The notes: generated from the sequence alone by a model not told the origin. DNA of 64,000 nucleotides from Candidatus Poribacteria bacterium (GCA_022821495.1 JAJEDN010000104.1:14043-78042); one strand, 5' to 3'. Positions 2,201 to 46,903 are shown, counted from the first letter of the stretch. Translations and numbers: made by a program.

Positions 2201-3110
2201 GGAGCGTCATCTGTTCAGCAGAAATTCCATCGGAGAGTGTAACTTTCTTGGCCAGACCATGTTTTCCCCAAATCGTTTCTAAATCCAGGGTCCAGGCATA
2301 ATCCTTGAAAAAGCGTGAGACATCATCCGATTCTCGTCGTTCGGCAAGCCTGTCTTGAATGAGTTCAACATTCTGAGAATCCAGTTCAATGCCTATTGAC
2401 TTTCGTCCTAATTGCTCTGCTACAACCAACGTTGTGCCTGAACCTGCGAACGGATCCAAGACAACATCACCCAAATTTGTCGAAGAGAGAATAATCCGAA
2501 GGAGGAGTTGGATAGGTGCTTGTTGCTTATGTAGACGATTCCCATCCGTATCCCGCAACGCTTCATCGCCTGCAAAATAGCCAGAGGTTAACTCACGGAT
2601 ATCATCCCACACATCGGTAACGAACATACCGTTCTCGCGCGCGTGTTTGTAGCCTGCTGGCAGCGGTGGGTCAATCCGCAAACGATGGAAAACACGTGGT
2701 GTTTTGCCTTTCGTTGCAAACGCAATCACTTGATAATGCTTACCGAAACGCTTTACGCCTGGCACTGCCGAGGTCTTTTTTTTCCAGATAATCAGATTTT
2801 GGAAAGTCCATCCAGTATCGCGTAAGCACTGCAGAACGAATTCTGTATTCTTCTCGCGTTGCATGAAATAAATCGCGCCACCAGCGGAAGTCAATGCATA
2901 CACCTTGGCACAGATATCGCGCATCCACTCCCAATATCTCTCCGGTGGCATATTATCATCCCAAGCGTTGTAAGCTTTATCTTGATTAAAGGGGGGATCG
3001 AGAAAGGAGAGGTCTATTTTTGAAGCGAAGTCGCTGCTATCCAAGGCAGTCGTGCAATTTTCATGGCGGACGACATAGTTTTCTCTAAGTGGGTTACACA
3101 TAACGTTCAC
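2187..3110 (-). CDS. beta-class N6-adenine or N4-cytosine DNA methyltransferase
   Basis: DPPF catalytic motif (LDPPFNQ) precedes the SAM motif DPFAGSGTT. Overlaps the C5 methyltransferase ORF by 14 nt. Confidence 0.85.
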   Translation of the reverse strand: MNVMCNPLRENYVVRHENCTTALDSSDFASKIDLSFLDPPFNQDKAYNAWDDNMPPERYWEWMRDICAKVYALTSAGGAIYFMQREKNTEFVLQCLRDTGWTFQNLIIWKKKTSAVPGVKRFGKHYQVIAFATKGKTPRVFHRLRIDPPLPAGYKHARENGMFVTDVWDDIRELTSGYFAGDEALRDTDGNRLHKQQAPIQLLLRIILSSTNLGDVVLDPFAGSGTTLVVAEQLGRKSIGIELDSQNVELIQDRLAERRESDDVSRFFKDYAWTLDLETIWGKHGLAKKVTLSDGISAEQMTLLESN

Positions 3111-3227
3111 ACGTGCTCAAATTAACGCCCAAGGACAGGCGTGATTATACCGTGCCAATATACAGATGTGTTGAACCGGTATCCACCTGTGGAGTGGAGA
3201 TAATGCTGGGGACATCGGGACTTGAAA

Positions 3228-3737
3228 TTAGACCGTATATTGCTTTAGCGTATCGTCATCTAAGTTCTCTAAAACATCTTTCGGATCGTGCTGCTCGCCT
3301 TCGCTCAATTCTTGTTCAGAGAACCCATGGTCCGCAATCACGTCTTCGGCAACAAAGATAGGCACTTCACATCGCAGCGCAAGCGCGATCGCATCACTCG
3401 GACGGCAATCCACCTTAATCTCTTCGTCGCCCGCTTGCAAAGTGACATGCGCAAAAAAAGTTCGTTCTTCAACATCGCGCACACATATATCCTTCACCTT
3501 TGCCCCAAGCGTCTCAATCATAATTTTCAGCAAATCGTGTGTCATCGGGCGCGGGAGTTCAACATTTTCTATATGCATTTGAATAGCACCCGCTTCTGAT
3601 TCGCCGATCCAAATCAGGAGTATCCGATTTGAGTCTTCGCCTGTCTCCTTCAGGACAACTATCGGCGCGCCTGTCCTCCGATCGATTGAGAGAAAGTGAA
3701 TTTTAACTTCAGTCTTTGCCTGTTTCTCAATATCCAT
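3228..3737 (-). CDS. bifunctional nuclease (BFN/DUF151) family protein
   Basis: Motifs PIVVLKE, ILLIWIG, EAGAI, RPMTHDL and RPSDAIALA are typical of DUF151. Confidence 0.65.
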   Translation of the reverse strand: MDIEKQAKTEVKIHFLSIDRRTGAPIVVLKETGEDSNRILLIWIGESEAGAIQMHIENVELPRPMTHDLLKIMIETLGAKVKDICVRDVEERTFFAHVTLQAGDEEIKVDCRPSDAIALALRCEVPIFVAEDVIADHGFSEQELSEGEQHDPKDVLENLDDDTLKQYTV

Positions 3738-4812: not shown

Positions 4813-4853
4813 CCAAATCGACGCTCAATAAGAATAGGATCACTACACGGGAA

Positions 4854-5204
4854 TGGAGGTGGCGGGAATCGAACCCGCGTCCGAAGGCATTTCAATAGAG
4901 GCTACTACATGCTTATCACAGGTTTTGAGGTTCGTCTATAAGACTCCCCTGTGCAGGATTCAGCATAGACTATCTCAAAAGTGGTTCGCGGCACGCTCCT
5001 TGAGAATGAGCGAGCGGCTAGCCCGTATTGCGACGCTTTAACTTCCCTGACGGGCAACAGGTCGGTCAAGCGTAGCCGCGTTTAGGCAGCTAGTGCTAAT
5101 TCTTCATCAGCATTTATAAGTGTTCCGCCTATTTAACGAGGCCTGCGGAGACCTCGGCATGCAACCTATATCTCATCCACCTTCGTCGAAACCTTGACAC
5201 CCCC
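4854..5204 (-). ncRNA. ssrA: tmRNA (SsrA)
   Basis: 5' end GGGGGTGTCAAGGTTTCGACG. 3' end GCGGGTTCGATTCCCGCCACCTCCA. The acceptor stem has a G3:U pair. Internal reading frame ends NADEELALAA-TAA (stop at 5082-5084). Lies directly downstream of smpB. CCA is not encoded. Confidence 0.9.
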
Positions 5205-9859: not shown

Positions 9860-10024
9860 AGGACCTACGCATTCCCGCTCAAAGTCCCCCTGATAAGCGG
9901 GATTTAGGGGGTTAAAGATGCTCTCAAAGTCCCCTGATAAGGGGGATTTAGGGGGTTAAAAAATACGGAAATCACCGCTCTTTGCGTCTAAATGTCCGAT
10001 ATTTTCCCGATTTGCGTAAGTCCT
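9860..10024 (+). repeat. R1 MITE with two tandem cores
   Basis: TIRs AGGACCTACGCA (9860-9871) and TGCGTAAGTCCT (10013-10024). Core AAAGTCCCCCTGATAAGGGGGATTTAGGGGGTTAAA occurs twice. Ends 45 bp from the 3' end of tRNA-Leu. Confidence 0.7.
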
Positions 10025-10068: not shown

Positions 10069-10153
10069 TGCCGGAGGTCGGACTCGAACCGACACGGACC
10101 CAGGGCCCGCGGGATTTTGAATCCCGTGCGTCTACCAGTTTCACCACTCCGGC
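10069..10153 (-). tRNA. tRNA-Leu(CAA)
   Basis: Reverse complement reads GCCGGAGTGGTGAAACTGGTAGACGCACGGGATTCAAAATCCCG...GGTTCGAGTCCGACCTCCGGCA. Long variable arm and anticodon loop TTCAAAA. Confidence 0.9.
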
Positions 10154-10393: not shown

Positions 10394-11245
10394 ATGGCAA
10401 ACCAACAACGAAACCCAGCATCTGAAAACATAGTCCAACGCATCTTTATGATCGCGGTAGCATTTCTCAGCCAACTCCGTGAAAAAGAGACGTGGCAAAC
10501 CATGTGGCATTGGGTGCTCTGGCGCACCATTCCCAAACGTCGCCGCATTCTTAGGTTGATACAAGACCTCCAACCGCTCCACGTAGACGCGCCTGCTGAA
10601 ATGCGCGCACTTCGGGACGAAGTTTTCGCAAAAAGCTGCTTAGAACTGAAATACGCAGAACAAGAACAGGTTCTCTTAGATATCCTGATACATGCACATC
10701 AACCTCTCGGATTCGAACAAATCTTTTTCGCTGCCATCTATCCGGTCATACTCAAACGCGACATGGAAGCCATCCAAATCACGACTGAAACACCGCATCG
10801 GCTTGACGTAGAAATCGGTTATCTCGGACACAATGAAGATTACTTCTTCTGGGTCCTTGAGATCGACGGCACAAAACGCCTCACACTCAACACACCGCTC
10901 AATCCAAGAGAGGAGACGCGAGCCGACAAACGCTACGTAATCTACTCCCTGGGAAGCACAGGCCTCGTGGATACAGACTTTACCGAATACGCCGCACAAT
11001 GGCTGCTGGACTCACCCCGATTGACAATCGCACTCCCGCTGCTTGCCGCGACTTACGCTGACCAGTGGATCCTCAACGCACGCCTCTATCTCGCACATAT
11101 CTTCGCAGATCTCAAAAAACGGAATTACCAGGTCACAGCAACGGTAATAACCGATTTTGAACGGGAGCGGTTGTCACTCTTACGCCGTCTCTCCCTGGAC
11201 CGGCTAAGAAAACGTCAACTTCTGTCCGAACGCCGAAATCGCTAA
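10394..11245 (+). CDS. hypothetical protein
   Basis: 283-aa ORF with no recognisable motif and an Arg-rich tail. Its 3' end overlaps the convergent peptidase gene by about 113 nt. Confidence 0.4.
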   Translation: MANQQRNPASENIVQRIFMIAVAFLSQLREKETWQTMWHWVLWRTIPKRRRILRLIQDLQPLHVDAPAEMRALRDEVFAKSCLELKYAEQEQVLLDILIHAHQPLGFEQIFFAAIYPVILKRDMEAIQITTETPHRLDVEIGYLGHNEDYFFWVLEIDGTKRLTLNTPLNPREETRADKRYVIYSLGSTGLVDTDFTEYAAQWLLDSPRLTIALPLLAATYADQWILNARLYLAHIFADLKKRNYQVTATVITDFERERLSLLRRLSLDRLRKRQLLSERRNR

Positions 11246-12314
11246 GGTAGATACCCGGCTCAATTGAAAAACAGACACCAGAAATCAAAACCCGTGCATC
11301 ACGCGTCTCCAAGTTATCTAAATTTACACCGTTCCCATGGATAACAGTACCGATATTGTGTCCCGTGCGGTGAATAAAGTAATCGCCATACCCTTTCTCA
11401 GTGATATATCCCCGGACACAATCATCCACCTCATAACCGTGAATCGGTGCATCGGCAGCCCATTTCTCCTTAATGAAGCGTATTGCCCTGTCCCGCGCCT
11501 CCTTAACTATATCAAAAATCTCAATATACTTCGTGGGAACAACTTCCCCAGCGTAAGCGACCCACGTTGTATCCGCAAAAACGGCATCAGAATCTTTCTG
11601 CTTCGCCCACAAATCAATTAAGATAAAGTCTCCGACTTTAATGGCTTGCGTGTCCACCGCTGACGGCGCATAATGTGGGTCGCTGCTCTTCGCATTCACA
11701 GCGACAATAGGCGGATGATCTGTGACCAAATCCATCGCATCAAATTGCCCGAGAATCTCCTGCTGCACGTCGTATTCCGTAATGCTTTTCCCATCCCGCA
11801 GCTGTGCACCGATCCACGCGAAAGCATAATCCTTCGCTTGCAGCACCAAGCGTGCAGAGGCTTGATGCCCTGTTGCTTGTGCCTCACTGAGCCGTGCCTC
11901 CATACGCTGCGCCAGTTCCGCAGACGTACGCACCTCAATTCCAAACGAACGAATCCACTCCAGCGTGCCAGCATCTACCCGCGAAATATAAGGAATCTCG
12001 GCGTTCGGTGAATACTCCATCGCAACTGTTTTGATACCAGCGAGCAGCGTCTGGATCGCTTCATTAAGTTCTTCCCACCCTGCATAGAGTGCAACCTGTC
12101 CTTGCACATCGGTAAAATTCGATGTCTCAATCCGATGGACAAGCCACCGCGGCGCACCTTGTTTAGGAATAAGACAGAACCACCGGCGCGTGATATGCGC
12201 CCCCGCCAAACCAGCCACGTTCTGTGCAATCGGGTTAATCCCCCGAAAATCGTAAAGAAGCCACGCATCTAATTTCAACGCCGCCAGTTCATTCTGAATC
12301 TCGGTTATCTTCAT
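11133..12314 (-). CDS. M24 family Xaa-Pro aminopeptidase/creatinase-like metallopeptidase
   Basis: Motifs HRTGHNIG and FSIEPGIY with pita-bread fold metal ligands. Confidence 0.8.
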   Translation of the reverse strand: MKITEIQNELAALKLDAWLLYDFRGINPIAQNVAGLAGAHITRRWFCLIPKQGAPRWLVHRIETSNFTDVQGQVALYAGWEELNEAIQTLLAGIKTVAMEYSPNAEIPYISRVDAGTLEWIRSFGIEVRTSAELAQRMEARLSEAQATGHQASARLVLQAKDYAFAWIGAQLRDGKSITEYDVQQEILGQFDAMDLVTDHPPIVAVNAKSSDPHYAPSAVDTQAIKVGDFILIDLWAKQKDSDAVFADTTWVAYAGEVVPTKYIEIFDIVKEARDRAIRFIKEKWAADAPIHGYEVDDCVRGYITEKGYGDYFIHRTGHNIGTVIHGNGVNLDNLETRDARVLISGVCFSIEPGIYLSDFGVRTEVDVFLAGPGRDGVRVTTAPVQNRLLPLL

Positions 12315-12777: not shown

Positions 12778-15700
12778 TTACCGAATCTCCAACGCAGGCA
12801 AGTTTTCTATAATATCCACCGTCTCCAAGCTCACCGTAATCACCTTCCCAATCAACCTAACAATATACTGCGGATCGTCCGTACGGTTCGGGTCGTTAAC
12901 AATCCCGCTCCGTTTGTCCGTCTTCACACGATACTGATCCACCACCCATTCCAAAGCCGAACGCGTCCCAAGTCGATAGTCAAAAACCTTTGGAGGAATC
13001 CCCGATAACGTCAGAAAATCGTTGTAGATAAGCGAGGTTTTATCCCTGGAGAGTTTCATCTTCTCGACACGCCAATTGAGCGGCACATCCGGCGTTTGGA
13101 CGAACTTGAGTTTATCGTATTCAGGTTGCGATTCGTAGGTGACGTGGAGGTCTGCCAACCGCGCGCCCGCTTCTGCGAATCCCCAGAAATCCGCTGCAAC
13201 CCCCCTGTCAAGGGGGGCAAGGGGGGTTGGGATATGTGGCAGATCGCGTTTGAGGTTCGCTTCGTATTTTTCACGATAGTCAGGATGATGCAGGAGTCCG
13301 TAATTACAATGGAAGATGTCCCATTTGGTAATGGTGTCGTCGTTGTAATGGGTACGGAATTCTGTCAATGCCCAATCGGTGATGTTTTCGCGTCGGTTGG
13401 TGCCGTCTGCATCGTAGATGTAGAAGGGGAAGCATTGAGAACCACCTTGAGGCAATCGATCAGCAAGTTGATTGACCATTAATCCAAACATCGGCCAGTC
13501 TCTTCCGACCTTAAGCCATATCACCCGATTTTCCATTTCGGTTTCTGGCGTGGGAAAGATGAACCGGAAGAGGGAAACTTCATCGTTCATAATGGAATCA
13601 AAAAACAGATTAGATTTCGTGAAAGGACGATAGAGTGAATTTCTTACCTTATGTTCAGCGTATTCGGCAATTTTGTTTTGTTTCAATTCGCGTTTTAAGT
13701 TCCGACTCCATTTGATTTCTTTATCATCAGGTATCACAAAATCATCAAGGTTAACATTTCGATCTGTTCTTTGGCCCCATCGAGTCACTTCAGTATTATA
13801 AGTTTGGATCATTTTACTTATGTTTTCAGTTAGCACGTTTCGATTAAAATTGTAAATCCATGCATCACGACCAGTGAGGATACCGGTACTGTAAGTTTGA
13901 AAAATCACATTTTTTGCCGCATCCTTTAATGCTTTCGCTTCTTTTGTCCCCATTGGCATAAAGGTCTCAAATTCGGTGTGGAGTCCTTCAGTCAGCCATG
14001 TGTGCCGCGTGTCGGGTTGGATCGGTTGCCATGGGACATTGCCTGTATGTTGGTATTCATCCAGAAAGTCGAATTTCTGTTGCTTGTCCCACAAGTCATG
14101 GGTACGATGGTAGAAAATACGCGGTAATTCCGACCGGTTTTCCTTTTTCTTTACAAATAGGTTGATGCTCACGCCGACGCGAATCCCGAACACATTCGCG
14201 TCAGAGACTTTTAACCCTTTCCGCGCATTTCCACCTAAATCGAGGATATAGATTGCATCGCAATCTTCGGCGAGGTGTTTCCGCATGCCGTCAAACGCCA
14301 CGCCGCTGAGAAAACTGTTGTTTGTGACGAAAGCGACAACACCTTCGTCATCAATCCTGTCCAACCCCCATCGAATTGATTTTATGTATGGATCGTAGAG
14401 CGCAGTTCTAAGCGTTGCTTTGGAGTCTTTTGCATAAGTGTCCGCAACCCGCTGGTCCATCGTCTTATACTTCCGGTTTTTGTTGTTATCGTTCTCGTTA
14501 ACCTGTCCCATATTGTAAGGTGGATTGCCGATGACGACGAACATCTCAGTCTCTTTCTGCTTCTCGACGCGCGCCGTGTTCGCAGGTGTGAGGAGCGACA
14601 TCTGTTGGTCCTCTATCATCTCAAACGTATCCACGAGGCAGATACCTTCGTAAGGCATATATTGGTGCGTTGCCGTGTAGAATTCTTGCTCGATGTTCAT
14701 ACTGGCGATATAGTAGGGCAGGAGCATCACCTCATTGCACTGGAGTTCCGGTGGGTCAGCGGTATACTTGCGCTCCAGTGAAATCGGATCAAGTGCCTGC
14801 ATGATACGGACGATGAAGTTGCCAGTGCCGACAAACGGGTCGATGATATGCACGCCACTATCCGAAAGTGAACGATCAAACTCAGTCTGTAAAAGATGCG
14901 CAACGCTCTTCACCATGAAATCGACGATCGGCTGCGGTGTATAGACGATGCCGTGTGTATCCGCAACCTTGACGGAGAACCCTTGAAAAAACTGCTCATA
15001 GACGGTGTTGAGGAATCCCTGTTTCTGTGAGAAATCGGTAATCGTACCGGCAGTCTGCTCAATCGCAGCGTAGAACGGCTCCAAAGGACGGAGAAACTCG
15101 GAACGATTCAGTGTCCGTTCGGTCAGCACGTCAATGACAGTCTCAATTTCACGGGCGATAATATTTCGACGGGTAAAGTCAGGATTATCAAAGACAGTAC
15201 GGAAGATACGTTCTGTCAACAGATGCTGGATGAGCATCTCCTCTACAGCGGCGACAGAAAGGTTCGGGTTAATCGAGGCTTGACACTGCTGATGAAAACT
15301 GGCGAATGCTTCCTGAAAATGTGGGTTGTTTTGGCGTTCTGTTTCGATTAACGCCGCCAATTTGTCACCGAGTTCCGGTACCGTGTCTTTGAATTCAGCG
15401 ACGGCGGTATGCCATGCTGAGATGTTCTCCGCTTGATAGGTGAAGAAGGTCTGGAGCACTTGGATAAGGTTTCTCGGCTCGGTGATGTCAAGGTCAAGTT
15501 GAAGTCGTCCGTGCTGATAGAGGAGCGCGTGGGTGGGAGATTGGATGACGATATTTTTCAAGGGGTAACCCACCGCAAACTTCTTATCTGCTTCAGTGTG
15601 GAGATCGTCCTGGGTATCTTTCGCTTCCCAGTAGCCGTGTGGCAGACCATAAGTATCGACAACTTCACCATCGGGTTGGATACGCCTGTAACCCCCCTTA

Positions 15701-15900
15701 CCCCCCTTATCAGGGGGGAGAATGTGGCTTTTTTCACAGAGGAGCGTGAGGTTAGATTGGCGGCAGTAGTGCTGGAGAAGGTCTTGAAATGCAGCGCGGA
15801 CAGTGCCCTCATTTTCTATCCCATGCTGCGCATATTTTTCGAGCTCAGCATAGTAGTTTTTGATGGGCTTGTGTGTCGGTTTGATAGTGAAATCTGGCAT
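12778..15900 (-). CDS. single-chain restriction-modification-type enzyme: N-terminal PD-ExK motif, N6-adenine methyltransferase and a type ISP-like C-terminal domain
   Basis: IQPDGE...GYWEAKD (D-x14-E-x-K), DPFVGTGNF (motif I), VIGNPPYN (motif IV), and C-terminal RSALEWVVDQYRVKTDKRSGIVNDPN. No helicase domain. Confidence 0.75.
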   Translation of the reverse strand: MPDFTIKPTHKPIKNYYAELEKYAQHGIENEGTVRAAFQDLLQHYCRQSNLTLLCEKSHILPPDKGGKGGYRRIQPDGEVVDTYGLPHGYWEAKDTQDDLHTEADKKFAVGYPLKNIVIQSPTHALLYQHGRLQLDLDITEPRNLIQVLQTFFTYQAENISAWHTAVAEFKDTVPELGDKLAALIETERQNNPHFQEAFASFHQQCQASINPNLSVAAVEEMLIQHLLTERIFRTVFDNPDFTRRNIIAREIETVIDVLTERTLNRSEFLRPLEPFYAAIEQTAGTITDFSQKQGFLNTVYEQFFQGFSVKVADTHGIVYTPQPIVDFMVKSVAHLLQTEFDRSLSDSGVHIIDPFVGTGNFIVRIMQALDPISLERKYTADPPELQCNEVMLLPYYIASMNIEQEFYTATHQYMPYEGICLVDTFEMIEDQQMSLLTPANTARVEKQKETEMFVVIGNPPYNMGQVNENDNNKNRKYKTMDQRVADTYAKDSKATLRTALYDPYIKSIRWGLDRIDDEGVVAFVTNNSFLSGVAFDGMRKHLAEDCDAIYILDLGGNARKGLKVSDANVFGIRVGVSINLFVKKKENRSELPRIFYHRTHDLWDKQQKFDFLDEYQHTGNVPWQPIQPDTRHTWLTEGLHTEFETFMPMGTKEAKALKDAAKNVIFQTYSTGILTGRDAWIYNFNRNVLTENISKMIQTYNTEVTRWGQRTDRNVNLDDFVIPDDKEIKWSRNLKRELKQNKIAEYAEHKVRNSLYRPFTKSNLFFDSIMNDEVSLFRFIFPTPETEMENRVIWLKVGRDWPMFGLMVNQLADRLPQGGSQCFPFYIYDADGTNRRENITDWALTEFRTHYNDDTITKWDIFHCNYGLLHHPDYREKYEANLKRDLPHIPTPLAPLDRGVAADFWGFAEAGARLADLHVTYESQPEYDKLKFVQTPDVPLNWRVEKMKLSRDKTSLIYNDFLTLSGIPPKVFDYRLGTRSALEWVVDQYRVKTDKRSGIVNDPNRTDDPQYIVRLIGKVITVSLETVDIIENLPALEIR
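13198..13229 (+). repeat. R1 core embedded in-frame in the RM gene (antisense to the CDS)
   Basis: CCCCCCTGTCAAGGGGGGCAAGGGGGGTT compared with the intergenic core TCCCCCTGATAAGGGGGATTTAGGGGGTT. Encodes PTPLAPLDRGV. Confidence 0.6.
15690..15721 (-). repeat. R1 core embedded in-frame in the RM gene (sense to the CDS)
   Basis: The minus strand reads CCCCCCTGATAAGGGGGGTAAGGGGGGTT. Encodes LPPDKGGKGGY, 6 aa before the PD of the nuclease motif. Confidence 0.6.
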
Positions 15901-16024
15901 GTCCTTTCCCTATATGTTGTAGATGGACGAAACAAGGTCAAATTATACATAGATTCGGGCGGAATTTCAAGGAAAATTTTGTTATATAGCCGAACCATTC
16001 AGTTGAAACCCTTCCCAAGACATA

Positions 16025-16053
16025 TTGACAATTAACCGTTCACACCGTATAAT
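16025..16053 (+). promoter_or_regulatory. consensus sigma70 promoter TTGACA-17-TATAAT
   Basis: Hexamers at 16025-16030 and 16048-16053. GGAGGA lies 8 nt before the ATG at 16084. Confidence 0.55.
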
Positions 16054-16808: not shown

Positions 16809-17519
16809 ATGACATTTGCAACGCTACTAACAACAATTCGAGACTACAAACAGGCAGGCATCTCAAACCTTGAAACCTTAACAACGCTGATCAATGACGC
16901 ATTTGGTGACTGGCTCGCATCACAAGGAGTCAGCTGCCTCACCATGCTGTCACCGGACAAATTGTGTCTGAATGTAACAGGGTCGTTAAAACACACTAAT
17001 TCCGCGGAGGGCATCGGATTCCACTCCCGGTTCCTCGTGATTTTTTTAGACGACGTAGCAGAAGCACCCGAGACAATAGCAGAGGCACTTAAATCCTACA
17101 CTTCAGACGGCGATGGTGCCTATGTCTGGGTGATTCCAGACGGGTACATGGCAGCGTTAACCCCAGCAGAGCAGGAATGGGAACAGCACGGCGGCGGCTA
17201 TTTCTCACATGAATCTATATGTATCTCCAACACCGCCGATATAGATACCCGTTGTGTCTTAGAAGTGCTTTATGAGGATCCCGGGCTGGAGAACGTCTCT
17301 TGTGAATTTGACGTGCCAGCGCATCGATCGGTGCATTACCGACTCGATAAACTCAAAGCCGAAAACGGTGAACCGCTGATTGCCAAAGATGCCCCTGTCA
17401 GTTATAAAATCACGAGCCGCGATGCCCGGATCGTCGTTCAAGGCTCGCGCATCCTGACAAGCGGTGAAAACAGCATATTCGCCAGCTTCGGCACCGTCAT
17501 GGCGTGGTCCCCGCAATAG
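16809..17519 (+). CDS. protein with a C-terminal ASRT-like (sensory rhodopsin transducer fold) domain
   Basis: C-terminal about 120 aa (HESICISNTADIDTRCVLEVLYED...VPAHRSVHYRL...IVVQGSRI) resembles the Anabaena ASRT family as I remember it. The N-terminal about 110 aa is unassigned. Confidence 0.4.
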   Translation: MTFATLLTTIRDYKQAGISNLETLTTLINDAFGDWLASQGVSCLTMLSPDKLCLNVTGSLKHTNSAEGIGFHSRFLVIFLDDVAEAPETIAEALKSYTSDGDGAYVWVIPDGYMAALTPAEQEWEQHGGGYFSHESICISNTADIDTRCVLEVLYEDPGLENVSCEFDVPAHRSVHYRLDKLKAENGEPLIAKDAPVSYKITSRDARIVVQGSRILTSGENSIFASFGTVMAWSPQ

Positions 17520-30574: not shown

Positions 30575-30704
30575 AGAACTTACGCAGTACCTCTCAAAGT
30601 CCCCCTGATAAGGGGGATTTAGGGGGTTAGGATTTAGGGCTGTTTCGTAGAAATCTCGGCACCTCTTAAAGTCCCCCTGATAAGGGAGATTTAGGGGCTT
30701 AAAA
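30575..30704 (+). repeat. R1 element with two cores and only the left TIR
   Basis: AGAACTTACGCA is followed by two AAAGTCCCCCTGATAAGGG(G/A)GATTTAGGGG cores. Confidence 0.65.
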
Positions 30705-40083: not shown

Positions 40084-40220
40084 GCCCCCCTGATAAGGGG
40101 GGTTAGGGGGGTTAGGGGCGTTATCTTCTTATACTAAAATCGGAAAATATGTTTACACTTCGCCCCCTCGTAGGGAGTTTTGCTGGAGTGTTTCTTCAAG
40201 GGGCACCCAGCCCTACGAGC
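40084..40220 (+). repeat. composite repeat: R1 core, then an R5 segment, then a hairpin with an R3 insert
   Basis: CCCCCCTGATAAGGGGGGTTAGGGGGGTTAGGGG. TTATACTAAAATCGGAAAATATG resembles 42688-42722. CTCGTAGGG-[R3]-CCCTACGAG lies at 40167-40219. Confidence 0.6.
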
Positions 40221-42489: not shown

Positions 42490-42930
42490 TTGGGTTATGA
42501 CCGGTTCGGTTAGGAAACCGAACCATAGGTGTCAATTTAGCGATTTTCATGGTATTTCCGGGGACAGTCTCTATAGATGCCGCCCCTACGGGGCTAAAGA
42601 CAAACACATTTCTACACAGATACCGTCGCTACGCGACTGAAGAGGGTTTTGAAGTCTTCAAGGTTTCCGCGTAGAATCCGGTTCGGTTTTATAGTAAAAT
42701 CCGAAAATAAATGAACACTTTTACGAAGATAACCCCCTAGGGGAAACACCCCAGCAAAAACACCCCCTTATCAGGGGGGAATAAGATAGGAATCGATTTG
42801 ATTGGATGTGTCTCAATAATTATGGGCTTTACTATAAACCGAACCTACCGGACCTGGGGGTGAAACGGTTATTTTTTCTTAAATTGACGCTTATGGTTCG
42901 GTTAGGAAACCGAACCTACCGGGCCTGGCG
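42490..42930. repeat. patchwork of small repeats in a 620-bp non-coding gap
   Basis: GGTTCGGTTAGGAAACCGAACC hairpin at about 42503 and about 42895. An R5 segment at 42688-42722. A reverse-oriented R1 core with R3 insert at 42731-42780. Confidence 0.55.
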
Positions 42931-46793: not shown

Positions 46794-46903
46794 CTTAAAG
46801 TCCCCCTGATAAGGGGCGGTGAATGCCTATAAGGCATTCATACCCGGTGAATGCCCATAAGGCATTCATACCGTTGATTCTGATTCTTTAGGGGGTTAAA
46901 AAT
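46794..46903 (+). repeat. R1 core interrupted by an R4 insert
   Basis: CTTAAAGTCCCCCTGATAAGGGG-[two GAATGCC-N5-GGCATTC hairpins]-TTAGGGGGTTAAAAA. Confidence 0.7.

What the first reader, a model, noticed from the sequence alone, without database searches (positions are those of the whole stretch)
13198..15721. Two R1 repeat cores inserted in-frame, in opposite orientations, inside the restriction-modification gene
Seen: 15690-15721 in the sense orientation encodes LPPDKGGKGGY. 13198-13229 in the antisense orientation encodes PTPLAPLDRGV. Both match the intergenic core TCCCCCTGATAAGGGGGATTTAGGGGGTT, and the 1040-codon frame stays open. The first lies 6 aa before the PD of the D-x14-E-x-K motif. 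The second lies between the conserved-looking ...LPHIP and ADFWGFAEAG...LHVTYE segments. Established: in-frame palindromic-element insertions are known for Rickettsia RPEs. Inference: the same kind of repeat-into-protein insertion occurs here, and it could modulate or disable the nuclease while sparing the methyltransferase.
Basis: partly seen in the sequence, partly recalled or inferred. Interest (0 to 1): 0.7.

Follow-up and report, generated by a model that had tools for sequence, protein, structure and literature searches.

The report
Selfish hairpin repeats inside a restriction enzyme
Two copies of a short hairpin-forming repeat really are inserted in frame in a sponge-symbiont restriction-modification gene. 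The gene still looks functional, and the repeat is the end-piece of a widespread, apparently undescribed selfish cassette that carries a small DUF559 endonuclease gene and often sits in loops of DNA-methylase and restriction proteins.

Summary
[quoted passage not shown] Residues 60-71 (ILPPDKGGKGGY) and 892-901 (TPLAPLDRGV) are encoded by two units of a dispersed repeat, in opposite orientations. About 200 close homologs were compared, including one 94% identical. Most have YTPEK and a single F at those positions, so the net gains are +7 and +9 aa.

The idea that the inserts disable the nuclease is not supported. All catalytic residues are kept. dN/dS of the nuclease domain is 0.04-0.17 in insert-bearing pairs, the same as in empty pairs. 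All 22 insert-bearing alleles are intact.

Three results go beyond the finding:
- Both positions are recurrent insertion hot spots: 14/81 and 8/81 genes, polyphyletic, in different frames, tandem and composite forms.
- The repeat is not specific to Poribacteria. An exact 25-base pattern hits more than 120 metagenome contigs with 35-64% GC.
- The repeat is the inverted terminal repeat of a cassette encoding a DUF559 (Vsr-like) endonuclease. A Poribacteria copy has a left end 28/29 identical to the site-1 unit.

Full cassettes, solo units and empty sites alternate at one loop of an unrelated DNA methylase. I found no paper describing this cassette. How it moves is inferred.

The parts
12778..15900 (-). 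DrdV-like Type IIL restriction-modification gene, 1040 aa. Domain order: N-terminal PD-(D/E)XK nuclease, helical coupler, N6-adenine methyltransferase, Type ISP C-terminal specificity domain.
   Evidence: ORF list. Pfam Type_ISP_C 5.5e-90, ISP_coupler 7.5e-18, N6_Mtase, Eco57I. PDB 7LO5 DrdV matches at E=3.3e-176 over residues 13-1036; LlaGI and LlaBIII match over residues 198-1039.
15688..15723 (-). Site 1: residues 60-71, ILPPDKGGKGGY. This is a forward, left-end-type repeat unit (C6-TGATAA-G6-TAA-G6-TTAC). It replaces the YTPE[KN] loop of empty alleles, a net gain of 21 nt (7 aa), four residues before P76-D77.
   Evidence: It is 28/29 identical to the window copy at 40085 and to the left end of the Poribacteria DUF559 cassette in L201.
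13198..13227 (-). Site 2: residues 892-901, TPLAPLDRGV. This is a repeat unit in reverse orientation relative to the gene (C6-TTG-C6-TTGACA-G6-TT on the sense strand). It replaces one Phe of empty alleles, a net gain of 27 nt (9 aa), between the conserved DLPHIP and ADFWGFAEAG.
   Evidence: Its reverse complement is 27/29 identical to the L201 left end.
15619..15675 (-). Nuclease catalytic motif P76-D77 ... E92-A-K94. Together with E31 (15808-15810) and K107 (15580-15582), all residues are intact.
   Evidence: The alignment to DrdV is. The DrdV catalytic residues D64, E79, K81, K94 and E25 come from bioRxiv 10.1101/2021.01.06.425610. The residues are kept in 77 of 80 family members.
14515..14526 (-). 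Methyltransferase motif IV, NPPY (residues 459-462). Motif I, DPFVGTG, lies at 14821-14841. Both are intact.
15942..15970 (-). Promoter-like site TTGAAA-17-TATAAT, 42 nt upstream of the start codon.
   Evidence: Consensus scan only.
9885..9957 (+).
   Evidence: The same 44-nt period is seen in the array that follows the DUF559 gene in L201.
30600..30700 (+). Two intergenic right-end-type units in direct orientation, 72 nt apart. The first is an exact copy of the R1 core.
40085..40123 (+). Intergenic left-end-type unit, CCCCCCTGATAAGGGGGGTTAGGGGGGTTAGGGGCGTTA. This is the closest copy in the window to the site-1 insert.
42763..42779 (+). Intergenic hairpin-only copy, CCCCCTTATCAGGGGGG.
46802..46818 (+). 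Intergenic partial unit, AAAGTCCCCCTGATAAGGGGCGG.

Best explanation
The two segments are solo terminal-repeat units of a hairpin-ended selfish DNA family. [quoted passage not shown]

The full element is a cassette with three parts:
- a left end, C6-TGATAA-G6-NAA-G6-TTAC, translated as PPDKGGxGGY;
- an ORF of about 115 aa for a DUF559 (Vsr-like, PD-(D/E)XK) endonuclease;

Solo ends and tandem or inverted multimers are scattered between genes. Five of the unit's six reading frames have no stop codon, so copies also survive inside genes as 9-12-residue Pro/Gly-rich loops.

Shown:
- the insertion itself;
- its absence from close homologs;
- purifying selection on the host nuclease domain;
- recurrence at the same two positions;
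- distribution across phyla;
- the physical link to DUF559;
- empty, solo-unit and full-cassette states at one loop of another methylase.

Inferred:
- the DUF559 endonuclease drives copying, homing-like, by cutting a site that is then repaired from a filled copy;
- solo units are partial copies or remnants;
- the hot spots reflect site preference, recombination among the many paralogs, and a filter for permissive loops;
- the peptides themselves are neutral passengers.
For: Insertion. Close homologs lack exactly these residues, as do DrdV and LlaGI.

Same repeat family. Site 1 is 28/29 identical to the intergenic copy at 40085 and to the L201 left end. Site 2 is 27/29 identical to that left end. 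The hairpins fold as 7-bp G/C stems.

The enzyme is not disabled. Catalytic and SAM motifs are intact, and nuclease-domain dN/dS is 0.04-0.17 in filled pairs. There are no stop codons in any of the 22 filled alleles. A promoter-like site precedes the gene.

The insert is younger than the gene, or is homogenised. The core units differ by 0-17% between alleles. The flanks differ by 9-25% overall and by 18-48% at third codon positions.

Recurrence.
- 14/81 genes are filled at site 1 and 8/81 at site 2.
- Filled alleles are scattered when alleles are clustered on about 400 nt of local flank.
- L077 and L080 read the unit in another frame (TPLIRGARGV). L016 has it in triplicate. L035, L059 and L063 have 70-90-nt composites.

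Other genes are hit too. The neighbouring M24 peptidase gene of L005 has a clean 69-nt in-frame insertion that the window's copy lacks. Metagenome copies lie in frame in an E2 acyltransferase linker, O-antigen-ligase-like proteins, ApbE and an Eco57I-type methylase.

Across phyla. More than 120 contigs match, with GC 35-64%. Named DUF559 hits come from Omnitrophota, Deltaproteobacteria, Dehalococcoidia and Nitrospirae.

Cassette.
- DUF559 is confirmed by Pfam at 1.1e-32.
- It lies next to the unit in about 24 of 120 loci.
- 18 of 19 copies have a forward unit within 61 nt upstream, and 9 of 14 have a reverse unit within 74 nt downstream.
- The Poribacteria locus L201 was retrieved by protein similarity, not by the DNA pattern. 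It shows both ends.
- 90 of the 120 best DUF559 hits carry the left-end peptide.

Three states at one site. The N6_N4 methylase loop IEVKPHV|KKNS|VAVELTDF is empty in about 100 of 120 homologs. P0249 and P0272 carry a solo unit there, checked at the DNA level for P0272. P0241, P0253 and P0288 carry a full in-frame cassette.

DrdV-like enzymes of other lineages carry full in-frame DUF559 cassettes (P0367, P0404) or other insertions exactly at site 2 (P0380, P0390).
Against: - No DUF559 gene occurs in the window or in 700 kb around the 80 Poribacteria homologs. The window's genome was not shown to hold a cassette. The link to a Poribacteria genome rests on L201, which I assign to Poribacteria only because its contig has the same length (3,570,899 nt) as the contig carrying RM homolog P0077.
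- The metagenome loci were selected for containing the forward unit, so the upstream association is partly built in.
- Neither site in the RM gene is a clean insertion. 15 nt (or 9 nt) of host sequence is replaced at site 1, and TTC is replaced at site 2. There are no target-site duplications. The mechanism is therefore unknown.
- The gene family is a recombination mosaic. Part of the apparent recurrence could be transfer of short tracts rather than new insertions.
- No structural model could be obtained (mean pLDDT 37), so 'surface loop' rests on sequence alignment and indel tolerance only.
- No activity or methylome data exist.
Confidence: 0.8

Rival explanations
1. Adaptive modulation. The inserts were retained because they change how the enzyme behaves. 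Site 1 lies four residues before the catalytic Asp and seven residues after the residue aligned with DrdV R46, which is part of the nuclease-nuclease dimer interface. It could tune cleavage, stop mixed assemblies forming between the several near-identical paralogs in one cell, or help the enzyme escape phage anti-restriction proteins.
For: - The insert is close to D77 and to the residues aligned with the DrdV interface residues E41 and R46.
- Insertion recurs at the same two positions in many lineages.
- Genomes hold up to five or more paralogs, some in tandem.
- Filled alleles persist under purifying selection.
Against: - The same units occur in unrelated proteins and between genes.
- The peptide differs with reading frame (PPDKGG against PLIRG) at the same site. 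That argues against a specific peptide function.
- 83-90% of family members do without the inserts.
- The unit's DNA, not its peptide, is what is conserved.
Confidence: 0.12
2. Phase-variation device. Each unit brings three G6/C6 homopolymer runs into the reading frame. Slippage would switch the restriction enzyme off and on, as homopolymer tracts do in the RM genes of Neisseria, Haemophilus and Helicobacter.
For: - Six runs of six G or C lie in the ORF.
- Run lengths vary between alleles: C7 in L059 and G7 in L021.
- Phase variation of RM genes through homopolymer tracts is established knowledge from those genera; it was not tested here.
Against: - All 22 filled alleles are in frame, so no frameshifted variant was seen.
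- Runs of 6-7 are shorter than the tracts of 8 or more that usually give high switching rates (established knowledge).
- The units also occur in housekeeping genes such as the M24 peptidase and an E2 acyltransferase, where switching would not be useful.
Confidence: 0.05
3. One ancient insertion per site, later spread among paralogs and species only by homologous recombination and lost by deletion. On this view there is no repeated insertion and no site preference.
For: - The gene is clearly mosaic. Against L013 it is 99-100% identical over nt 1500-2450 but about 90% elsewhere, and only 74-81% next to site 1.
- The window and L004 share both inserts and have the closest neighbouring peptidase gene (97% aa), so they share the inserts by descent.
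- Orientation is constant at each site.
Against: - Filled alleles are scattered even when clustered on about 400 nt of local flank.
- Junctions differ between alleles: GGY-RRI, GGS-N-RRI, and a different frame and replaced segment in L077/L080 compared with L076.
- The units are far less diverged than the surrounding synonymous sites.
- The same hot-spot behaviour, with a full cassette, is seen in an unrelated methylase from several phyla.
Confidence: 0.15
4. The resemblance is coincidental or an assembly artefact. On this view the segments are native Gly/Pro-rich loops, or chimeric joins made at repeats during metagenome assembly.
For: The source is probably a metagenome-assembled genome, and repeats are where assemblies tend to break.
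Against: - The same protein (99% identical, both inserts) is present in four member sequences on two contigs (P0001).
- The inserts recur in independent assemblies: L004, L014, L024 and others.
- Flanking sequence is colinear with empty alleles on both sides.
- Chance expectation for the motif is about 0-0.1 per window.
Confidence: 0.01

Closest known systems
Rickettsia palindromic elements (RPEs) and other intragenic MITEs (ERIC, BOX, Anabaena MITEs); review PMC10969869 citing Ogata et al. 2000
   Same: They are dispersed palindromic repeats found both between genes and in frame inside unrelated genes. They add a peptide segment without destroying the host protein, and the insertions are absent from orthologs.
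   Different: RPEs are about 100-150 bp, confined to Rickettsia, and have no known autonomous partner. The unit here is about 27-33 nt. It occurs in contigs with 35-64% GC and in several named phyla. It is the terminal repeat of a cassette that encodes an endonuclease. It re-hits the same positions of one protein family. There is no sequence similarity to RPEs.
Homing endonuclease genes of the EDxHD / Vsr-like family (I-Bth0305I; PMC3239194), to which DUF559 has been assigned (PMC9403480, PMC3424549)
   Same: The element carries a small Vsr-fold endonuclease ORF. It shows a presence/absence polymorphism at one precise position of conserved host genes in distant taxa. The same site is invaded repeatedly.
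   Different: Known members sit in self-splicing group I introns or inteins, or are free-standing in phages. Here the ORF is read straight through in frame with the host protein, with no intron or intein signature. It is bracketed by hairpin-forming inverted repeats that also exist as solo copies. Cleavage activity and target are untested.
REP / REPIN elements with their RAYT transposases (PMC3116915)
   Same: The units are short G/C-rich imperfect palindromes. They occur singly, in tandem or as inverted doublets that form long hairpins. They flank a small gene thought to mobilise them.
   Different: The flanked gene is a PD-(D/E)XK-type DUF559 endonuclease, not an IS200/IS605-type Y1 transposase. 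REPs are extragenic and specific to a species. These units are often intragenic, and near-identical units are found across phyla.
Small dispersed repeats (SDR) of Nostocaceae (Elhai et al. 2008, Genome Res 18:1484; not held in the library, so recalled from memory and from the mention in PMC5861425)
   Same: They are very small (21-27 nt) mobile repeats, sometimes nested and sometimes inside genes.
   Different: SDRs were reported only in Nostocaceae (PMC5861425) with no associated protein. I could not compare sequences.
[quoted passage not shown]
   Same: The host gene aligns end to end with DrdV (E=3.3e-176). It has the same domain order and all the catalytic residues.
   Different: It has two extra loops made of repeat DNA. 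Its TRD segment is 99-100% identical to that of a relative that is otherwise about 90% identical. Its recognition sequence is unknown.

Membership tests
Type IIL (DrdV-like) restriction-modification enzyme | Single polypeptide with N-terminal PD-(D/E)XK nuclease, helical connector, gamma-class N6-adenine methyltransferase and C-terminal TRD, with no helicase domain | tested here: met
   Pfam finds ISP_coupler, N6_Mtase/Eco57I and Type_ISP_C. The protein aligns full-length to DrdV 7LO5 at E=3.3e-176. LlaGI and LlaBIII match only from residue 198 onwards, so there is no translocase domain.
Type IIL (DrdV-like) restriction-modification enzyme | Catalytic residues of both activities present | tested here: met
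   E31, D77, E92, K94 and K107 correspond to DrdV E25, D64, E79, K81 and K94. NPPY is at 459 and DPFVGTG at 354.
Type IIL (DrdV-like) restriction-modification enzyme | Methylates one strand of an asymmetric site and cuts at a fixed distance downstream, with multiple sites needed for cutting | not testable with these tools
   This needs methylome data or purified enzyme.
In-frame intragenic palindromic repeat (works like RPE or an intragenic MITE) | The same repeat is present at several other places in the genome | tested here: met
   There are seven intergenic copies in the window and others in Poribacteria loci.
In-frame intragenic palindromic repeat (works like RPE or an intragenic MITE) | The insert is absent from close orthologs and the reading frame is preserved | tested here: met
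   P0002/L013 (94% identical) and most of the roughly 200 homologs lack both inserts. The net gains are +21 and +27 nt.
In-frame intragenic palindromic repeat (works like RPE or an intragenic MITE) | The host protein remains under selection | tested here: met
   dN/dS is 0.04-0.17 in filled pairs. No stop codons occur in the 22 filled alleles.
Rickettsia palindromic element family proper | Sequence homology to RPE-1 to RPE-10, about 100-150 bp, in Rickettsia genomes | tested here: not met
   The unit is about 30 nt and the organism is Candidatus Poribacteria. No Rfam or other family matched. The resemblance is functional only.
Classical MITE / IS-derived element | Terminal inverted repeats flanked by a target-site duplication | tested here: inconclusive
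   The DUF559 cassette does have inverted ends. No target-site duplication is seen at RM site 1, RM site 2 or the clean 69-nt peptidase insertion. In L121 a stretch of about 27 nt of host sequence is repeated on both sides of the cassette, which I did not resolve.
REP/REPIN-RAYT system | An associated IS200/IS605-type Y1 transposase (RAYT) gene flanked by the repeats | not tested
   I made no search for Y1 transposases. The gene found flanked by the repeats is DUF559.
Homing endonuclease gene (EDxHD / Vsr-like lineage) | The endonuclease ORF belongs to the Vsr-like fold family | tested here: met
   Pfam DUF559 at 1.1e-32. Nearest solved structure is 3HRL at 2.3e-16. DUF559 is grouped with Vsr and I-Bth0305I in PMC3424549 and PMC9403480.
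Homing endonuclease gene (EDxHD / Vsr-like lineage) | Presence/absence polymorphism at one precise site of a conserved host gene | tested here: met
   The N6_N4 methylase loop occurs empty, with a solo unit, or with a full cassette. DrdV-like P0367 and P0404 carry cassettes.
Homing endonuclease gene (EDxHD / Vsr-like lineage) | Embedded in a self-splicing intron or intein, or free-standing with its own expression signals | tested here: not met
   The cassette is read through in frame with the host protein (L163 914-aa ORF; P0241, P0253, P0288). Pfam reported only N6_N4_Mtase, DUF559 and MTES_1575 on it, so no intein domain. No Rfam intron match was found in the 15 loci scanned, a set that did not include L163.
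Homing endonuclease gene (EDxHD / Vsr-like lineage) | The enzyme cleaves the empty target site | not testable with these tools
   This needs biochemistry.

The most novel reading that the evidence does not exclude
The R1 units are the ends of a previously unrecognised class of mobile element found across phyla. It is a homing-like cassette built from a DUF559 (Vsr-fold) endonuclease gene bracketed by hairpin inverted repeats. It invades coding sequences without an intron or intein by being translated through as an extra loop or domain. It leaves solo 30-nt ends as footprints or partial copies. It preferentially colonises restriction-modification and DNA-methyltransferase genes, which may also carry it between phyla.
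Probability: 0.4. Interest if true: 0.85.

Novelty: new variant of a known kind. Interest (0 to 1): 0.68.

Why it matters
For this gene the answer is modest. The restriction enzyme tolerates two pieces of selfish DNA and probably still works. Annotators should not call it a pseudogene, nor treat the loops as native structure.

The wider result matters more.
- DUF559 is a very large 'unknown function' family, with 3191 hits for this subfamily alone. A consistent genomic anatomy gives it a testable role as the engine of a mobile cassette.
- The cassette shows a way for selfish endonuclease genes to enter essential coding regions without an intron or intein.
- The solo units act as natural insertion mutagenesis. 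They mark permissive loops in DrdV-like enzymes and other methylases, which is useful for engineering them.
- Near-identical 27-nt units in genomes of 35-64% GC imply frequent horizontal movement, possibly riding on RM genes.
- These units will seed spurious ORFs, false 'programmed inversion' calls and assembly breaks in metagenomes.

Tried and rejected
- Cyanobacterial origin was my first guess. Genome hits are all Candidatus Poribacteria, so I rejected it.
- AlphaFold2 on the full protein with 37 homologs gave mean pLDDT 37. The model is unusable, so I ran no fold search and made no structural mapping. I did not use the second job because the available homologs are all at least 78% identical.
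- Rfam. Nothing at gathering threshold in the window except tmRNA and a tRNA. Only sub-threshold miRNA-hairpin noise on 15 repeat-bearing loci.
- Literature. No held paper contains the repeat sequence. The only paper containing one of the encoded peptide strings is an unrelated study of human fusion transcripts. None of the 25 papers that mention DUF559 describes a repeat-flanked cassette. Elhai et al. 2008 is not held.
- DUF559 in the window or the 80 Poribacteria loci: none by tblastn or by a custom HMM.
- Other in-frame copies in window genes: none in stop-free frames of 150 aa or more.
- Clean target-site duplication at the RM sites: none.
- Frameshifts at the G/C runs. The ORFs that looked truncated in my first parse were neighbouring tandem paralogs, not frameshifts.
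- A common target motif upstream of left ends. I inspected the junctions by eye and found only a weak T[AT] before the C-run, so I did not pursue it.

Full report
**1. What is at the coordinates**

The window holds an open frame of 1040 codons at 12778-15900 on the minus strand.
- On the sense strand, 15688-15723 encodes ILPPDKGGKGGY. Its DNA reads ATT CTC CCC CCT GAT AAG GGG GGT AAG GGG GGT TAC.
- 13198-13227 encodes TPLAPLDRGV. Its DNA reads ACC CCC CTT GCC CCC CTT GAC AGG GGG GTT, the same kind of unit in the opposite orientation.

The repeat is far beyond chance. The 29-nt core has 4 intergenic matches with up to 3 mismatches, against 0.00 expected. A looser hairpin pattern has 19 matches against 0.10 expected.

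The genic copies are a subtype of the family. They have runs of six G or C and 3-nt spacers. Site 1 is 28/29 identical to the intergenic copy at 40085-40111.

**2. The host gene**

- Pfam finds Type_ISP_C, ISP_coupler and N6_Mtase/Eco57I domains.
- The protein aligns end to end with the solved Type IIL enzyme DrdV (7LO5, E=3.3e-176). [quoted passage not shown]
- The DrdV paper gives D64, E79, K81, K94 and E25 as the nuclease site (bioRxiv 10.1101/2021.01.06.425610). These correspond to D77, E92, K94, K107 and E31 here, and all are present.
- NPPY (459) and DPFVGTG (354) are also present.
- A promoter-like TTGAAA-17-TATAAT lies just upstream.
- The neighbours are an M24 peptidase gene downstream, and a small membrane protein gene followed by an ASRT-domain gene upstream.

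**3. Are the residues extra?**

Yes. I compared 120 database homologs (78-99% identity) and 80 genomic loci. All 80 loci come from Candidatus Poribacteria or from unnamed sponge-type metagenome-assembled genomes.
- The common state is ...EK[ST]H-YTPE[KN]-RRI... and ...DLPHIP-F-AxDFWGF....
- The nearest relative, P0002/L013 (94% identity, 1024 aa), lacks both inserts.
- At the DNA level, site 1 replaces TAC ACC CCA GAA AAC with 36 nt, a net gain of 21. Site 2 replaces TTC with 30 nt, a net gain of 27.
- Neither junction has a target-site duplication.
- DrdV and LlaGI also lack these residues, and both positions fall in gapped parts of the alignment.

**4. Is the nuclease disabled?**

The evidence says no.
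- Pairs of insert-bearing alleles have nuclease-domain dN/dS of 0.04-0.17. Empty pairs have 0.03-0.11.
- The five catalytic residues are kept in 77 of 80 genes.
- All 14 site-1-filled and 8 site-2-filled alleles have uninterrupted frames.

Site 1 is nevertheless only four residues before the catalytic Asp, so a quantitative effect cannot be excluded. I could not map the loops in three dimensions because the AlphaFold model failed (mean pLDDT 37).

**5. Hot spots and mosaicism**

The gene family is large. The genome collection holds 514 relatives, several per genome, and some are in tandem.

The family is mosaic. The window gene is 99-100% identical to L013 over nt 1500-2450, about 90% elsewhere, and only 74-81% next to site 1.

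About 21 loci share the gene order ASRT gene, membrane-protein gene, RM gene, peptidase gene. By its peptidase gene (97% aa), L004 is the closest genome. It shares both inserts, so those two lineages share them by descent.

Beyond that pair, filled alleles are scattered when alleles are clustered on about 400 nt of local flank. They also differ in form:
- PPDKGGKGGY, PPDKGGQGGS-N and a shortened PSDKGGY;
- a triplicated unit in L016 and a doubled one in L007;
- the same unit read in another frame, with a different replaced segment, in L077/L080 (TPLIRGARGVK) compared with the empty L076;
- 70-90-nt composites of a reverse and a forward unit at site 2 in L035, L059 and L063.

Orientation is constant at each site.

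The unit DNA differs by only 0-17% between alleles. Their flanks differ by 9-25% overall and by 18-48% at third codon positions. The units are therefore either younger than the genes or kept uniform by exchange with other copies.

I read this as repeated gain at two preferred and permissive positions, with some spread by recombination. A single gain per site followed by short conversion tracts is not excluded.

**6. Other genes**

Only the RM gene is hit in the window.

In L005, however, the ortholog of the neighbouring M24 peptidase carries a clean 69-nt in-frame insertion of two units (TPQPPLSGGQNGDPLSGGQDGDS) between codons that are adjacent in the window's copy.

**7. The repeat is not specific to Poribacteria**

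Their GC content ranges from 35 to 64%.

The unit is read in all five stop-free frames: PPDKGGxGG, PLIRGARGV, TPLAPLIRGV, NPPxPPYQGG and PPLPPLSGG. It lies inside real genes. Examples are an E2 acyltransferase linker, O-antigen-ligase-like membrane proteins, ApbE, a stop-free frame running from murG through murC into a murB-like C-terminal segment, and an Eco57I-type methylase.

No Rfam family matches it and no held paper contains it.

**8. What the repeat belongs to**

In about 24 of the 120 loci the unit lies next to a DUF559 ORF (Pfam 1.1e-32).

The anatomy is consistent across loci:
- a forward unit ends 2-60 nt before the conserved start of the DUF559 core ([YF][IL]PYN...) in 18 of 19 assessable copies;
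- an inverted unit follows the ORF within 74 nt in 9 of 14.

Those loci were selected through the DNA pattern, so I also looked at one locus retrieved by protein similarity alone. L201 lies on a 3,570,899-nt contig. That is the same length as the contig carrying the Poribacteria RM homolog P0077, which is my only basis for calling it Poribacteria.
- Its left end is ...CACTCTTA CCCCCCTGATAAGGGGGGCAAGGGGGGTTAC ATTCCATACAAC..., read as HSYPPDKGGKGGYIPYN. This is one base different from the window's site-1 unit.
- Its right end is AACCCCCTAAATCCCCCTTATCAGGGGGA.
- The right end is followed by a 44-nt tandem array of itself, the same period as the window's pair at 9885/9929.

Of the 120 best DUF559 hits, 90 carry the left-end peptide. 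In 58 of them it lies at a fixed distance from the core. Named sources are Omnitrophota, Deltaproteobacteria, Dehalococcoidia and Nitrospirae.

**9. Three states at one site**

In an unrelated N6_N4 DNA methylase, the loop IEVKPHV-KKNS-VAVELTDFSVFY occurs in three forms:
- it is empty in about 100 of 120 homologs from many phyla;
- it holds a 10-residue solo unit in P0249 and P0272 (P0272 DNA: ACCCCCCTGTCA...CAAGGGGGGAGCGAGGGGGGTT);
- it holds a complete DUF559 cassette read through in frame in P0241, P0253, P0288 and the loci L104, L163, L148 and L124.

A search of 50%-identity representatives with the window protein found more cases among DrdV-like enzymes of other lineages:
- P0367 has an in-frame DUF559 cassette between residues aligned to 856 and 857;
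- P0404 has one in the loop aligned to 586-595;
- P0380 and P0390 have other insertions exactly at site 2.

**10. Interpretation**

Shown: the window's two inserts are solo left-end-type units of this family, tolerated in a gene under purifying selection.

Inferred: the DUF559 protein mobilises the cassette. DUF559 has a Vsr-like fold. The nearest solved structure is 3HRL, and the family has been grouped with the EDxHD homing endonuclease I-Bth0305I (PMC3424549, PMC9403480, PMC3239194). The likely route is cutting a preferred site, followed by repair from a filled copy. Solo units would then be partial copies or remnants.

The replaced host nucleotides and the lack of duplications would fit copying by repair rather than cut-and-paste, but nothing here tests that.

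One systematic study lists DUF559 proteins and RM methylases among the gene families most enriched for flanking inverted repeats (PMC9881135). That is what this anatomy would produce.

**11. Comparison with known elements**

The behaviour matches RPEs and intragenic MITEs (PMC10969869) in outcome, REP/REPIN elements (PMC3116915) in form, and homing endonuclease genes in site recurrence. The element is not a member of any of them:
- it has no sequence relation to RPEs;
- its partner gene is not a Y1 transposase;
- it has no intron or intein.

The in-frame insertion itself is a known kind of event. What appears new is the element, its association with an endonuclease, its spread across phyla, and its liking for restriction and methylase genes.

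Noticed in passing
window 12778-15900 compared with L013 (JAJDTM010000017.1): The RM gene is a recombination mosaic. Gene nt 1500-2450 (the variable part of the target-recognition region) are 99-100% identical to L013, while the rest is about 90% identical. L004 shows the reverse pattern. This points to a recent swap of the specificity segment between Poribacteria lineages.
   Followed up: partly
L050, L056, L060 (OY282383.1) and generally: Poribacteria genomes carry many paralogs of this DrdV-like gene. The genome collection holds 514 relatives, with at least five in OY282383.1. Some lie in head-to-tail tandem arrays about 300-400 nt apart.
   Followed up: partly
L005 8460-8530: The ortholog of the window's neighbouring M24 peptidase gene (window 11133-12314) has a clean 69-nt in-frame insertion of two repeat units. 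The window and L004 lack it.
   Followed up: yes
L078 about 3170-3270 (site 1 of that RM homolog): A different small hairpin element (TCGGGATCCCGATGCCG...CGGAACCTGTCGGGACCG) appears nested inside the loop of the repeat unit, with GATAA on both sides. It looks like one small repeat inserted into another.
   Followed up: no
L076 and L077, at the position aligned to residue 341 of the window protein: There is a third, rarer in-frame insertion: GSEGNGGRATPSHRGKDAPPTGGEEE in L076 and a shorter form in L077. It is made of a different G/C-rich repeat.
   Followed up: no
L201 2780-3080 and 3460-3700: The Poribacteria DUF559 gene is preceded by a duplicated copy of its own first ~90 nt, with four tandem partial left-end units between the two copies. 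It is followed by a 44-nt tandem array of right-end units. The repeat ends seem prone to local amplification.
   Followed up: no
L121 about 3050-3650: About 27 nt of host methylase sequence (GC.ATCG.AGTCAAGCC.CA.ATTGAT) is present on both sides of a DUF559 cassette, followed by a second solo unit. This is either a long target duplication or two successive events.
   Followed up: no
window 13096-13482 (+) and 15433-16035 (+): The ORFs of 128 and 200 aa on the strand opposite the RM gene run through the repeat units (NPPVKGGKGGW, TPLTPLIRGE). I take them to be spurious. They exist because the units have no stop codon in most frames.
   Followed up: partly
window 4851-5204 (-) and 10069-10153 (-): A tmRNA gene (183 bits) and a tRNA gene. 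The tRNA lies about 110 nt from the tandem R1 pair at 9885-9957.
   Followed up: no
window 16809-17519 (+): The gene two places upstream of the RM gene encodes a protein with an Anabaena-sensory-rhodopsin-transducer (ASRT) domain (2e-15). It is conserved in synteny across about 20 Poribacteria loci.
   Followed up: no
L130 (metagenome contig Ga0233425_10000186): At least three units in tandem with a 33-nt period are read in frame, with further degenerate copies alongside, as repeated NPPNPPYQGGT inside a membrane protein of a 35% GC organism.
   Followed up: no
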